Shown here in pieces: positions 37,895 to 50,906 of a DNA stretch of 64,000 nt. The notes under the pieces are model-generated. The model did not search any database and was not told the origin of the DNA. It was given only the letters and a program-made list of their open reading frames with translations. Position 1 is the first letter of the stretch, and each line of letters starts with the position of its first letter. The stretch lies in sequence record OK040907; one strand, 5' to 3'. This DNA comes from Enterobacteria phage Ac3. A program made the position numbers and the translations under genes.

Positions 37895-38755
37895 TTACAC
37901 CGCCATCTTTCCTTTAATAGGAGGATGTGATTCATAGTTGTTAAGAACAAAATTATGAGGCTTTGCAAATTGACTCAACCAAAATACCTGCGATTCTGTG
38001 TCCCATTCATCAAATTCATCTGGAAATTTTAATTGTAATTCGCATAAATCCATAGGTTCACGACATAAAATTTCTTTACATTGTTCTACGTGATTCATAT
38101 AGATATGAGTATTACCACCAGAAAATATCAAATCTCCCGGAATAAGATTACACATCTTAGCTACAATATGAACTAACGTAGCATATGATGCAATATTAAA
38201 TGGAAGACCGAGGAAAACATCTACCGAACGTTGATACCACTGAAGGTCAAGGTATCCATTACGCACATTAAACTGATAGAACATATGACAAGGCGGTAAT
38301 GCCATATATTTAAGTTCAGCTGGATTCCACGCAGAAACAATTTGACGCCTATCATTTGGCAGTTTTTTAATACGATCAATAACTTCTATAATTTGATCTA
38401 CACCGCCAAAATCACGCCACTGTTTTCCATAAATTGGACCAAGTTCACCGCTATGGTATCCTAAATCTTTTGCTTGATTTTCGTAATTTTCATCCCAGAC
38501 TGTTTTGCCTTGAATTAATGAATCATGTTGAATTAATCGCAAATCATTGACATTTGTGCTTCCTGATAAAAACCATATTAGCTCAGCAATGCATGCATTC
38601 CAGGCGAGCTTTTTAGTTGTTACTGCAGGAAAACCTTTGGTTAAATCCCAACGCAATTTAGTACCGAACAAAGCAATTGTTCCTGTGCCCGTTCGGTCAT
38701 CGGTTTCATAGCCATTTTCAAAAATGTCTTTAATTAAATCTTGGTATTGTTTCAT
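37895..38755 (-). CDS. td: thymidylate synthase (uninterrupted)
   Basis: 286-aa continuous ORF (T4 Td length); active-site region LPPCH; no intron-sized gap. Confidence 0.93.
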
Positions 38756-38800
38756 TTAGTACCTTATATAAATTATAATACATTTTATGAAGCTAAATAA

Positions 38801-39148
38801 TCAATACGGTTTAGCATCAAATTTTCTCCCAATTTCAGGCGTGAAATATAATTCTTTACCGCGTTTGGAAAAGCGACCAATAATATGATAATTATTCTCA
38901 TCAAACGTGATATTACCAATATCCATAGCTTTCAACCAAATATCGATATTTCTATCCAGCTTTATGTCAAAATTCCAATACGGAGAACTATTACCGAAAA
39001 TACTACAAGCGGATTCAGTGAAACAACTGCTATAAATCTTGTCTTTAGGAACTACTAATTGATAGACACCTTTAATAAACTGAGGACCCTGCCACTTTGG
39101 CTGTTTCTCATCTTTTTCTAATAGAATAGGGTAATAATTAAAATTCAT
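38801..39148 (-). CDS. hypothetical protein inserted between frd and td
   Basis: 115-aa AT-rich ORF occupying the frd-td junction. Confidence 0.55.
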   Translation of the reverse strand: MNFNYYPILLEKDEKQPKWQGPQFIKGVYQLVVPKDKIYSSCFTESACSIFGNSSPYWNFDIKLDRNIDIWLKAMDIGNITFDENNYHIIGRFSKRGKELYFTPEIGRKFDAKPY

Positions 39149-39167
39149 ATTTCCGCCGCGCGTTATT

Positions 39168-40126
<959 letters not shown>

Positions 40127-40179: not shown

Positions 40180-40539
40180 TTATATTATCTCCCATCGAAA
40201 AGGGTCAGGAGCATATCCGATAGAGTTAATCATTTTAACTAAAGTTACCATTCCTTTGTTAACTGCTTGTGCGATTTCATCAAAAACTTCATCGCTATCA
40301 TCATAAAGGTCATTAAAAAGTTCTAACACGTTCTTCTGAACTTTTAATTTATGACCAACAATCTCGCCTACAGTAAATTCGTTTCCGCCGATTCCAGTGT
40401 AAAACGTAATTACACCAGTTAACAGACTTTCGCGAGAATCTAGGTCATGTGATAAATTAATATAAGCCATCCCGGGTGCAGTTTTAAGTTGGCAACGAAT
40501 TCTTACTTGGGTAATTCCGGTTACATGAATGTCGGACAT
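40180..40539 (-). CDS. hypothetical protein (frd.x-like)
   Basis: ORF track 40180..40680; start moved to MSDIHVTG (119 aa) preceded by AAGGAAAA; upstream part of the track ORF overlaps the neighbouring GC-rich gene out of frame. Confidence 0.55.
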   Translation of the reverse strand: MSDIHVTGITQVRIRCQLKTAPGMAYINLSHDLDSRESLLTGVITFYTGIGGNEFTVGEIVGHKLKVQKNVLELFNDLYDDSDEVFDEIAQAVNKGMVTLVKMINSIGYAPDPFRWEII

Positions 40540-40549
40540 ATTATTTTCC

Positions 40550-40789
40550 TTAAGCTTTCTTGGCAACTTTCCAGTCAGCTTTGAACTGATCGACGTCGCT
40601 GTGATGGATCCAGAAGCCGGAGCTGGAACCGTCTTCATAGAGTGGGCAACCGTCACATTCATCTTCCCAACCCATATCACGCAGGAGATGTTCTGCCTTT
40701 TCGATCAGCTCGGAATCTTTACCAATGATGTTGAAGTACCATTTGCCGCGTACTTCAGAGTCTTTAATGGACTGACGCTGCAGACGCAT
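40550..40789 (-). CDS. small GC-rich early protein with CxxC-like pair
   Basis: ORF track 40550..40879 (TTG start); real start taken as ATG at 40789 preceded by GAGGAG and an early promoter; 79 aa, E. coli-like codons. Confidence 0.55.
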   Translation of the reverse strand: MRLQRQSIKDSEVRGKWYFNIIGKDSELIEKAEHLLRDMGWEDECDGCPLYEDGSSSGFWIHHSDVDQFKADWKVAKKA

Positions 40790-49071: not shown

Positions 49072-50187
49072 ATGGAAAAATTTATGGCAGAGTTTGGACA
49101 AGGATATGTCCAAACGCCATTTTTATCGGAAAGCAATTCAGTAAGATATAAAATAAGTATAGCGGGTTCTTGCCCGCTTTCTACCGCAGGACCATACGTT
49201 AAATTTCAAGATAATCCTGTAGGAAGTCAAACATTTAGTGCAGGTCTTCATTTAAGAGTTTTTGACCCTTCCACGGGAGCATTGGTTGATAGTAAGTCAT
49301 ATGTTTTTTCTACTTCAAATGATACAACATCTGCTGCTTTTGTTAGTTTTATGAATTCTTTTTCAAGCAATAGACTTGTTGCTATATTAACTAGCGGAAA
49401 GGTTAATTTTCCTCCTGAAGTAGTATCTTGGTTAAGAACGGCAGGAACATCTGCTTTTCCATCTGATTCTTTATTGTCAAGATTTGACGTATCATATGCT
49501 GCCTTTTACACTTCTTCTAAAAGAGCTATCGCACTAGAGCATGTTAAACTGAGTAACAGAAAAAGCACAGATGACTATCAAACTATATTAGATGTAGTAT
49601 TTGATAGTTTAGAAGATGTTGGAGCGACAGGATTTCCTAAAAGAACATATGAAAGCGTTGAGCAATTTATGTCAGCTGTTGGTGGAACTAATAACGAAAT
49701 TGCACGTCTACCTACAGCATCTGCAATAAGTAAACTTTCTGACTATAATTTAATTCCTGGAGATGTTCTTTATCTTAAAGCACAACTATATGCTGATGCT
49801 GATTTATTAGCGTTGGGAACTACTAATATTTCAATTCGTTTTTATAATGCGTCGAATGGATATATTTCCTCGACACAAGCTGAGTTTACCGGACAAGCTG
49901 GATCTTGGGAATTAAAAGAAGATTATGTAGTTGTTCCTGAAAATGCAGTAGGATTTACGATATACGCACAGAGAACTGCACAAGCGGGTCAAGGCGGTAT
50001 GAGAAATTTAAGCTTTTCTGAAGTGTCAAGAAATGGTGGCATTTCAAAACCTGCTGAGTTTGGCGTCAATGGTATTCGAGTTAATTATATCTGTGAATCT
50101 GCTTCACCTCCGGATATAATGGTACTTCCTACGCAAGCATCGTCTAAAACTGGTAAAGTGTTTGGGCAGGAATTTAGAGAAGTTTAA
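49072..50187 (+). CDS. 35: long tail fibre hinge protein gp35
   Basis: 371-aa ORF following gene 34. Confidence 0.9.
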   Translation: MEKFMAEFGQGYVQTPFLSESNSVRYKISIAGSCPLSTAGPYVKFQDNPVGSQTFSAGLHLRVFDPSTGALVDSKSYVFSTSNDTTSAAFVSFMNSFSSNRLVAILTSGKVNFPPEVVSWLRTAGTSAFPSDSLLSRFDVSYAAFYTSSKRAIALEHVKLSNRKSTDDYQTILDVVFDSLEDVGATGFPKRTYESVEQFMSAVGGTNNEIARLPTASAISKLSDYNLIPGDVLYLKAQLYADADLLALGTTNISIRFYNASNGYISSTQAEFTGQAGSWELKEDYVVVPENAVGFTIYAQRTAQAGQGGMRNLSFSEVSRNGGISKPAEFGVNGIRVNYICESASPPDIMVLPTQASSKTGKVFGQEFREV

Positions 50188-50192
50188 ATTGA

Positions 50193-50215
50193 GGGAGCCT
50201 TCGGGTTCCCTTTTT
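50193..50215 (+). terminator. hairpin GGGAGCC-TTCG-GGTTCCC plus TTTTT after gene 35
   Basis: stem-loop followed by T-run, then a late promoter. Confidence 0.6.
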
Positions 50216-50218
50216 CTT

Positions 50219-50226
50219 TATAAATA
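50219..50226 (+). promoter_or_regulatory. T4-type late promoter TATAAATA upstream of gene 36
   Basis: exact TATAAATA about 24 nt upstream of the gene 36 start. Confidence 0.65.
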
Positions 50227-50249
50227 CTATTAAAATAAAGGGGCATACA

Positions 50250-50906
50250 ATGGCTGATTTAAAAGTAGGTTCAACAACTGGAGGCTCTGTCATTTGGCAT
50301 CAAGGAAATTTTCCATTGAATCCAGCCGGTGACGATGTACTCTACAAATCATTTAAAATATATTCAGAATATAATAAACCACAAGCAACTGATAACGATT
50401 TCGTTTCTAAAGCTAATGGTGGTACTTATTTAAATAAAGTAATTTTTAATAAAGGAATGACTGTTCCTGGTGCTGGGTCAGGTGACAACGGTATTTTTGC
50501 CGGTCCTGGTGATAATGCCACATATGATACTACAAATATGGATATTGTTTCATGGTATGGTATCGGCTTTAAATCATCACAAGGGGCAGCAGGTAGAACT
50601 GTAGTAATTAACACACGAAACGGAGATATTAGCTCAAAGGGTGTAATTGAAGCATCACAAATACGCGCAACTTCGTTATCACCAGTAAATAATTATGACC
50701 TTACGAGAAAAGATTATGTTGATGGGGCAATAAATATTGTTACAACAAATGCAAACTCTAGAGTATTACGCTCTGGAGACACTATGACAGGAAATTTAAC
50801 TGCGCCAAACCTTTTTTCACAGAATCCTGCATCTCAACCCTCGCATGTTCCGCGATTTGACCAAATCGTAATTAAGGATTCTGTTCAAGATTTCGGCTAT
50901 TATTAA
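50250..50906 (+). CDS. 36: long tail fibre proximal connector gp36
   Basis: 218-aa ORF; SGDTMTGNL fibre repeat motif. Confidence 0.9.
   Translation: MADLKVGSTTGGSVIWHQGNFPLNPAGDDVLYKSFKIYSEYNKPQATDNDFVSKANGGTYLNKVIFNKGMTVPGAGSGDNGIFAGPGDNATYDTTNMDIVSWYGIGFKSSQGAAGRTVVINTRNGDISSKGVIEASQIRATSLSPVNNYDLTRKDYVDGAINIVTTNANSRVLRSGDTMTGNLTAPNLFSQNPASQPSHVPRFDQIVIKDSVQDFGYY

What the first reader, a model, noticed from the sequence alone, without database searches (positions are those of the whole stretch)
38801..39148. Extra 115-aa ORF between frd and td
In T4, frd and td are reported to overlap directly. Here a 115-codon AT-rich ORF (MNFNYYPILLEKDEKQPKWQGPQFIKGVYQLVVPKDKIYSSCFTESACSIFGNSSPYWNFDIKLDRNIDIWLKAMDIGNITFDENNYHIIGRFSKRGKELYFTPEIGRKFDAKPY) separates them. 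It shows no GIY-YIG or HNH motif, so it is not an obvious homing endonuclease; function unknown. It sits in a locus that is a known hotspot for mobile DNA in T4 (td intron / I-TevI).
Basis: partly seen in the sequence, partly recalled or inferred. Interest (0 to 1): 0.5.

Follow-up and report, generated by a model that had tools for sequence, protein, structure and literature searches.

The report
Known small gene between frd and td
The 115-codon ORF is a real, conserved but dispensable phage gene of unknown function that most T4 relatives carry between their dihydrofolate reductase and thymidylate synthase genes; T4 is the exception, so the finding is ordinary.

The parts
38801..39148 (-). 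ORF A (RB32ORF229c orthologue; phrog_1928), 115 aa plus stop
   Evidence: Searches show the ORF. It is 100% identical to RB51/RB68. It matches phrog_1928 at E=2.4e-35. dN/dS is 0.01-0.13. The AF2 model has pLDDT 92.
39149..39167 (-). 19-nt frd-A spacer, AATAACGCGCGGCGGAAAT, carrying a G-rich Shine-Dalgarno-like element (GGCGGA) 4-5 nt before the ATG
   Evidence: Sequence. GG(C/T)GGAAAAT is conserved before the ATG in T6, RB14, REP1, ECO07P2 and Shf125875, and absent in NHEP29, where the ATG overlaps the frd stop. Its role as a ribosome-binding site is inferred.
39163..39174 (-). Left copy of the flanking direct repeat (coding strand TAAATGAAATAA), spanning the frd stop codon
   Evidence: the repeat finder family D2, 11 of 12 nt identical, copies 416 nt apart. 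Alignment with T4. The RB14 GenBank note reads 'flanked by 9 bp repeat'.
38747..38758 (-). Right copy of the flanking direct repeat (coding strand TAAATGAAACAA), spanning the td start codon
   Evidence: T4's junction GTATATAAATGAAACAATACC is the exact collapse of the two copies.
38756..38800 (-). 45-nt A-td spacer; about 30 nt of it are missing in REP1, Shf125875 and NHEP29
   Evidence: One sigma-70-like match (9 of 12) lies here, but the region has no more such matches than shuffled sequence.
39168..39749 (-). frd (dihydrofolate reductase), the upstream neighbour in the same orientation
   Evidence: annotated in RB51; 96.4% aa identity to T4 Frd.
37895..38755 (-). td (thymidylate synthase), intronless, the downstream neighbour in the same orientation
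   Evidence: 286 aa, continuous; 99.5% aa identity to T4 exon 1; intron insertion site intact at 38207/38206.

Best explanation
The ORF is a genuine gene of T4-like phages under purifying selection (GenBank name RB32ORF229c, PHROG 1928). It is the most persistent occupant of a small accessory-gene slot between frd and td. In other Tevenvirinae genera the slot reads frd-A-B-(C)-td, with the genes overlapping or abutting. A is this family, B is its tandem paralogue, and C is an unrelated 68-aa gene. T-even-type phages keep A only (this window, T2, T6, RB14, RB32), C only (P8, UTI-E4, IME537) or nothing (T4). The variants behave as alleles that are exchanged by ordinary homologous recombination in the conserved flanks. 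The T4-type empty junction and the A-bearing junction differ by one recombination event between 9-12-nt repeats (TAAATGAAA) at the frd stop and td start; the direction of that event is not resolved. The following part is inferred, not shown. The gene is probably transcribed and translated with frd and td in the pre-replicative period. Its product is a roughly 13-kDa, mildly basic beta-barrel-plus-helix protein with no catalytic residue set, so it most likely acts by binding something (a nucleic acid or a partner protein) and not as an enzyme. It gives a benefit only under certain conditions, because phages do well without it. It is not a homing endonuclease.
For: Gene reality: dN/dS is 0.01-0.13 with dS up to 0.9; a chance ORF this long arose in 12 of 20,000 shuffles; a conserved SD-like element precedes the ATG.

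Identity: 100% match to RB51/RB68 and annotated RB32ORF229c; phrog_1928 at E=2.4e-35.

Distribution and synteny: 580 phage records carry it, one copy each, always next to frd. The loci from Kanagawavirus, Jiaodavirus, Roskildevirus, Winklervirus, Kagamiyamavirus and Marfavirus all have A directly after frd. The full frd-A-B-C-td order is seen in VAC36 and in metagenomic contig L025. Three of four very distant members also lie between the DHFR and TS genes.

Paralogy: B is a paralogue of A (BLASTP E=2e-5; the same PHROG at E=1.9e-35). C is a separate family, phrog_9550.

T4 as the exception: and one search show the empty junction; only 2 single-piece T4-type junctions appeared among 40 sampled rows.

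Mosaic exchange: in NHEP29, A has dS 0.56 while frd has 2.3 and td 4.8; in RB14 and REP1, A has 0.08-0.14 while td has about 1.0.

Non-enzymatic binder: the invariant or near-invariant residues across 47 members are W19, G91, K95, G97, Q16, G27, Y29, F93 and F102, with no conserved Asp/Glu/His/Cys set; median pI is 8.7. The AF2 model is confident (pLDDT 92, pTM 0.85) with b1-b2-b3-helix-b4-b5 order.

Dispensability: T4 lacks the gene. Its Bas37 orthologue bas37_0070 had 34 of 36 TA sites hit by transposons and was called non-essential.
Confidence: 0.6

Rival explanations
1. It is a free-standing homing endonuclease gene, or a remnant of one, that inserted between two conserved genes and spreads by cutting ORF-less junctions. 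This is the label used in BASEL phage records.
For: There is presence/absence polymorphism between two highly conserved genes, the typical niche of seg and mob genes. It is flanked by a 9-12-nt direct repeat. The A cassette is much younger than its flanks in some genomes. It is annotated 'putative homing endonuclease' in several records.
Against: No GIY-YIG, HNH, LAGLIDADG or PD-(D/E)XK hit appeared for it or any of 47 relatives. There is no conserved acidic, His or Cys residue set. At 115 aa it is about half the size of known phage homing endonucleases (own knowledge). There is a single copy per genome, always in the same slot, with divergence down to 26% identity across genera, and strong purifying selection everywhere. 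The all-beta model is unlike known homing-endonuclease folds. The repeat is a generic stop-plus-ATG-AAA boundary motif present 12 times in the window. The BASEL paper gives no nuclease evidence.
Confidence: 0.04
2. It is an anti-defence or host-takeover factor: a small early protein that binds and neutralises a host immunity or metabolic protein found only in some strains. That would explain why it is dispensable and polymorphic.
For: It is a small, fast-evolving, dispensable pre-replicative gene in a variable slot with alternative cassettes (A, C, none), as several T-even counter-defence genes are (HIDEN-SEQ text). It has no enzymatic signature. It is non-essential on K-12.
Against: There is no PADLOC or other family hit. 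Bas37 insertions in the orthologue showed no fitness loss in the four host comparisons read, whereas real anti-defence genes in the same tables drop by log2FC -2 to -6. Its stable position in one slot next to frd across genera is unlike the usual scatter of counter-defence genes.
Confidence: 0.2
3. It is an accessory partner of the thymidylate cycle or the dNTP-synthesising enzyme complex: an adaptor or regulator that binds DHFR, thymidylate synthase or their mRNA. It would be kept next to them for co-expression at matched levels.
For: The adjacency to frd and td persists over very deep divergence, with Frd down to about 29-48% identity. Overlapping or abutting reading frames along frd-A-B-td suggest translational coupling. 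The model has a weakly OB-like topology and the family has conserved aromatic and basic residues.
Against: T4, the phage in which the dNTP synthetase complex was defined (own knowledge), lacks the gene. Many T-even phages replace it with the unrelated gene C. Insertions in it are neutral while td and frd insertions change fitness in the same experiments. Synteny alone is weak evidence in phages whose gene order is globally conserved.
Confidence: 0.15
4. It is a spurious or decaying ORF with no function.
For: It has no known domain, it is dispensable, and it is absent from T4.
Against: dN/dS is 0.01-0.13 over dS up to 0.9. Full-length conservation holds in about 580 phage records. AF2 gives a confident fold. 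The family has 41 representatives at 50% identity, all full length.
Confidence: 0.01

Closest known systems
RB32ORF229c / PHROG family phrog_1928 (hypothetical protein of T4-like phages; bas37_0070 in phage Bas37)
   Same: It is the same gene: 100% identical in RB51/RB68 and 97-99% in T2, T6, RB14 and RB32, with a full-length HMM match (E=2.4e-35) and the same position between frd and td.
   Different: Nothing differs. The family itself has no assigned function, fold or literature.
Free-standing homing endonuclease genes of T-even phages (seg and mob genes, e.g. segG next to gene 32, mobE between nrdA and nrdB)
   Same: Both are optional genes lodged between conserved genes of the nucleotide-metabolism and replication region. 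Both show presence/absence among close relatives, and their flanks show recombination mosaicism.
   Different: This gene has no nuclease domain or catalytic residues and is half the size. It is fixed to one slot across genera with divergence that tracks the genome, and it is under strong purifying selection.
OB-fold nucleic-acid-binding domains (HIN, Teb1, Cdc13, RPA, S1, RecO N-domain)
Other small accessory ORFs of the T4 gene 32-nrdA region (frd.1, frd.2, frd.3, nrdA.1, nrdA.2)
   Same: They are in the same region, orientation and size class, are of unknown function, are non-essential in transposon maps, and are variably present among relatives.
   Different: They belong to unrelated sequence families: FRD2, Phage_FRD3, DUF5417, DUF7247, DUF4326 and DUF5496 in Pfam, whereas this family has no Pfam entry.

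Membership tests
phrog_1928 / RB32ORF229c family | Full-length match to the family HMM | tested here: met
   E=2.4e-35, residues 4-111 matching profile positions 2-125 of 126.
phrog_1928 / RB32ORF229c family | Conserved motif set (Q16, W19, G27, Y29, GRFxKxG at 91-97, F102) | tested here: met
   All are present in the window protein. W19, G91, K95 and G97 are invariant in 47 members.
phrog_1928 / RB32ORF229c family | Position directly downstream of frd and upstream of td in a T4-like genome | tested here: met
Homing endonuclease (GIY-YIG, HNH, LAGLIDADG, PD-(D/E)XK, EDxHD) | A recognisable nuclease domain or catalytic motif | tested here: not met
   No Pfam family at E<=10 for the protein, and none among 47 relatives at E<=1. 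No NCBIfam hit. No invariant acidic, His or Cys residues.
Homing endonuclease (GIY-YIG, HNH, LAGLIDADG, PD-(D/E)XK, EDxHD) | Sporadic distribution with near-identical copies in otherwise divergent genomes or at different sites | tested here: inconclusive
   There is one copy per genome, always in the same slot, at 26-65% identity between genera. However, there is presence/absence polymorphism, and the cassette is younger than its flanks in NHEP29.
Homing endonuclease (GIY-YIG, HNH, LAGLIDADG, PD-(D/E)XK, EDxHD) | Site-specific cleavage of the ORF-less allele and biased inheritance | not testable with these tools
   This needs an in vitro cleavage assay on T4 frd/td junction DNA and mixed-infection crosses.
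OB fold | Five-stranded closed beta-barrel with a helix between strands 3 and 4 | tested here: inconclusive
   The DSSP order E6-12, E27-34, E62-64, H68-76, E86-96, E99-104 fits, with extra short strands. Barrel closure could not be inspected because no coordinates were available.
OB fold | Significant structural similarity to known OB domains | tested here: not met
Transposon-like insertion with target-site duplication | Direct repeat of the target at both ends | tested here: inconclusive
   A 9-nt exact (12-nt, 11 of 12) repeat is present 416 nt apart. But 7 of the 9 nt on the left and 6 of the 9 on the right are forced by frd and td coding, and the 9-mer occurs 12 times in the window as a generic gene boundary.
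Transposon-like insertion with target-site duplication | A transposase or terminal inverted repeats | tested here: not met
   The only ORF is the 115-aa protein with no transposase similarity. No terminal inverted repeats bound the segment, apart from an AT-rich 9-mer, TATATAAAT.

The most novel reading that the evidence does not exclude
phrog_1928 may be a structurally new small beta-barrel family restricted to T4-like phages (41 representatives among 1.84 billion proteins), kept beside the DHFR and thymidylate synthase genes across the subfamily, often as a tandem A/B pair. It could be an unrecognised, conditionally useful partner or regulator of the phage thymidylate cycle or dNTP-synthesising complex, missed because the model phage T4 lacks it.
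Probability: 0.12. Interest if true: 0.5.

Novelty: already known. Interest (0 to 1): 0.15.

Why it matters
It matters little as a discovery. The gene is annotated in hundreds of genomes, belongs to a catalogued family of unknown function, had its flanking repeat noted by the original annotators, and has been shown to be dispensable in a published transposon screen.

The useful outcome is a correction of perspective. T4 is the atypical genome at this junction. The frd-td interval is a conserved accessory-gene slot with three alternative states in T-even phages and up to three or more genes in other genera. The 'putative homing endonuclease' label circulating in some records is unsupported. If the protein were shown to bind DHFR, thymidylate synthase or a host factor, it would add a component that T4-centred work could not have seen.

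Tried and rejected
Searches that found nothing useful:
- Pfam, NCBIfam and PADLOC scans of A, B and C gave no hits.
- Sequence and profile searches of the PDB gave only noise, E>=0.1.
- Foldseek against BFVD returned only uncharacterised proteins from T4-like phages, i.e. the same family.
- The AFDB50 fold library was not available.
- Literature searches for the gene name, the PHROG id and 'frd-td' found nothing on this gene. The T4-genomes review and the Tevenvirinae base-modification paper do not discuss it. The accessory-gene screen preprint does not cover this locus.

An attempt that did not work: counting T4-type junctions by megablast with an 81-nt junction probe was confounded, because the tool joins the two halves across the insert. 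Only a rough frequency is available, 2 single-piece hits in 40 sampled rows.

Ideas considered and rejected:
- Homing endonuclease: no motif, fixed locus, purifying selection.
- Target-site duplication by transposition: the repeat is a generic boundary motif and there is no transposase.
- Linkage to the td intron and I-TevI: all four combinations of ORF and intron exist.
- Spurious ORF: ruled out by dN/dS.

A promoter and terminator scan of the region found no more sites than in shuffled sequence.

Full report
**Observation.** Upstream in the same orientation is frd (39168..39749). Downstream is td (37895..38755), which is continuous at 286 aa and therefore intronless. On the coding strand, frd ends ...GTATATAAATGA. 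A 19-nt spacer follows (AATAACGCGCGGCGGAAAT), then the ORF, then a 45-nt spacer, then the td ATG. An ATG ORF this long arose in only 12 of 20,000 shuffles of the 531-nt junction.

**Identity.** The 801-nt junction is 100% identical to phages RB51 and RB68, where the ORF is annotated 'RB32ORF229c hypothetical protein'. tblastn finds it in 580 phage records, always as one copy. Of these, 362 are at 90% identity or more, including T2, RB14, RB32, RB10, AR1, PP01 and wV7. The other 218 are below 60% identity, in phages of Klebsiella, Enterobacter, Edwardsiella, Erwinia, Serratia and others. T6 has it too, together with the td intron and I-TevI. It matches PHROG family phrog_1928, 'unknown function', at E=2.4e-35. 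Pfam, NCBIfam, PADLOC and PDB sequence searches gave nothing.

**T4 is the exception.** A third state exists: P8, UTI-E4 and IME537 carry a different 68-aa ORF (C, phrog_9550) that overlaps frd by ATGA and td by TAATG. In a junction-probe search, only 2 of 40 sampled records (T4 itself and Salmonella phage SG1) had the uninterrupted T4-type junction. The tool's joining of pieces prevents an exact count.

**The slot in other genera.**
- In Kanagawavirus (Q7622, PEi26), Winklervirus (CHI14) and Kagamiyamavirus (EcS1), the interval reads frd-A-B-td.
- In Jiaodavirus (JD18) it reads frd-A-td. In Roskildevirus (FBB1) another ORF lies between frd and A.
- In Marfavirus (VAC36) it reads frd-A-B-C-td.
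- A metagenomic T4-like contig whose A is 62% identical to ours also has frd-A-B-C-td.

The genes overlap or abut, which suggests translational coupling. B is a paralogue of A: BLASTP E=2e-5 with the shared motif GRFxKxGxxxxFxP, and the same PHROG at E=1.9e-35. B is found in 128 records, none of them T-even-type. C is found in 238 records, including unrelated Phapecoctavirus genomes at about 43% identity.

An exhaustive profile search of 1.84 billion representative proteins found only 41 family members, all 95-139 aa apart from two short fragments, with no other match. Three of four very distant members checked are again between the DHFR and TS genes of T4-like contigs; one is elsewhere.

**A real gene, exchanged by recombination.** Nei-Gojobori dN/dS between the window copy and other copies is 0.03-0.13. 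For example, against Shf125875 there are 27 synonymous and 11 non-synonymous differences, giving dS 0.63 and dN 0.04.

Divergence is mosaic. In NHEP29, A has dS 0.56 while frd has 2.3 and td 4.8. In RB14 and REP1, A (0.08-0.14) and frd (0.17-0.21) are close to the window, but td has dS of about 1.0. So recombination breakpoints flank the cassette, as expected for T-even phages. The A, C and empty variants behave as alleles moved by homologous recombination. The presence of A is independent of the td intron.

**The flanking repeat.** The segment missing in T4 is bounded by TAAATGAAATAA (39174-39163, across the frd stop) and TAAATGAAACAA (38758-38747, across the td start). That is 9 nt exact and 11 of 12 overall, with the copies 416 nt apart. 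T4's junction is their exact collapse. The RB14 GenBank record already says 'flanked by 9 bp repeat'.

Most of the repeat is forced by the frd C-terminus (YK-stop) and the td N-terminus (MK). The 9-mer also occurs 12 times in the window, because it is a generic stop-plus-start boundary. It is therefore microhomology suitable for illegitimate recombination, not evidence of transposition. Direction is unresolved. The wide distribution favours loss in T4. The resemblance of the non-coding AATAA after the frd stop to td codons 2-3 hints at re-insertion into an empty junction. Other left-junction variants exist: in NHEP29 the ATG overlaps the frd stop, and in RB14 and Shf125875 an extra A lengthens frd so that it overlaps the ORF.

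Invariant or near-invariant residues are W19, G91, K95, G97, Q16, G27, Y29, F93 and F102. There is no conserved acidic, His or Cys set. Median pI is 8.7. This argues for a binding protein and against a nuclease or other enzyme.

**Experimental data from the literature.** The HIDEN-SEQ preprint (10.1101/2025.11.20.689424) mapped transposon insertions in Bas37. By coordinates, Bas37 is phage KarlGJung (MZ501089), whose copy is 98.3% identical to ours. Its gene bas37_0070 (49989-50336, labelled 'putative homing endonuclease') had 34 of 36 TA sites disrupted and was classed non-essential. In the four host comparisons I read, log2 fold changes were 0.40, 0.18, -0.09 and 0.16, all with q=1. Known counter-defence genes in the same tables fall by 2-6 log2 units. 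The BASEL paper describes a comparative annotation workflow but gives no nuclease evidence for that label. No paper mentions the gene by name.

**Conclusion.** This is a known, catalogued hypothetical gene that most T4 relatives have and T4 lacks. Shown: it is a real gene, it keeps its synteny across genera, it has a tandem paralogue, its alleles are mosaic, it has no nuclease features, it is dispensable, and it has no match among known folds. Inferred: it is co-expressed with frd and td, and it has a non-catalytic binding role. Unknown: its partner, and the condition under which it pays. My estimates are a generic 'conditionally useful binding protein' at about 0.6 overall, split roughly between a host-directed or anti-defence role (0.2), a nucleotide-metabolism partner (0.15) and other binding roles. 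Homing endonuclease is at about 0.04.

Noticed in passing
L002:1079-1285, L003:1079-1285, L004:1082-1288, L011:2148-2354 (not in the window): An alternative occupant of the frd-td junction: a 68-aa ORF (phrog_9550) that overlaps frd by ATGA and td by TAATG. It is mislabelled 'flagellar biosynthesis protein' in some records. It occurs in about 135 T-even-type records, in Marfavirus (79% identity), and at other loci in unrelated Phapecoctavirus genomes (about 43%).
   Followed up: partly
window 37895-38755 (td) compared with L029 and L031: td alleles are dimorphic among T-even phages. The window's td is T4-like (99.5% aa over exon 1). RB14 and REP1 td are only 85.7% identical with dS of about 1.0, although their frd and ORF A are nearly identical to the window. 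This places a recombination breakpoint in the A-td spacer.
   Followed up: partly
window 38162-38251 (intron insertion site between 38207 and 38206): The intronless td keeps the I-TevI homing-site region but has clustered synonymous differences from T4's spliced exons: 85% identity in that 60-nt block against 97-100% nearby (e.g. CAACGC becomes CAACGT, and TTCTTGGGT|CTACCG becomes TTCCTCGGT|CTTCCA). Whether this lowers I-TevI cleavage was not tested.
   Followed up: no
window 38756-38800; L027, L029, L030: The A-td spacer is 45 nt in the window, T6, RB14 and ECO07P2 but only about 13-15 nt in REP1, Shf125875 and NHEP29. The roughly 30-nt extra piece (GCTTCATAAAATGTATTATAATTTATA) contains a -10-like TATAAT. 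No promoter evidence beyond a consensus match.
   Followed up: no
L031:201-815 (RB14), L027:201-818 (Shf125875): An extra A in the run at the end of frd (TATAAAAATGA instead of TATAAATGA) shifts the frd stop. Frd is then about 11 residues longer and overlaps ORF A by 11 nt.
   Followed up: partly
window 39746-40126 and 40180-40680: Immediately upstream of frd, the window has ORFs corresponding to RB32ORF231c and RB51ORF237 (as named in T6), one of them a DUF7247 protein. T4 appears to go from frd.1 to frd with only a 71-nt gap. If so, this is a second ORF-content difference from T4 in the same region.
   Followed up: partly
L012:2501-2854 (IMG/VR contig): One metagenomic copy, 99% identical to the window's, has a changed C-terminus (...AKPLII* instead of ...AKPY*) through an indel at the stop codon.
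   Followed up: no
L025 and L026 compared with the window: The closest relatives of ORF A outside the T-even group (62-65% identity) come from contigs whose Frd is only 47-49% identical, no closer than other genera where A is 26-45% identical. A is therefore unusually similar relative to its neighbour, a possible sign of old lateral exchange of the cassette.
   Followed up: no
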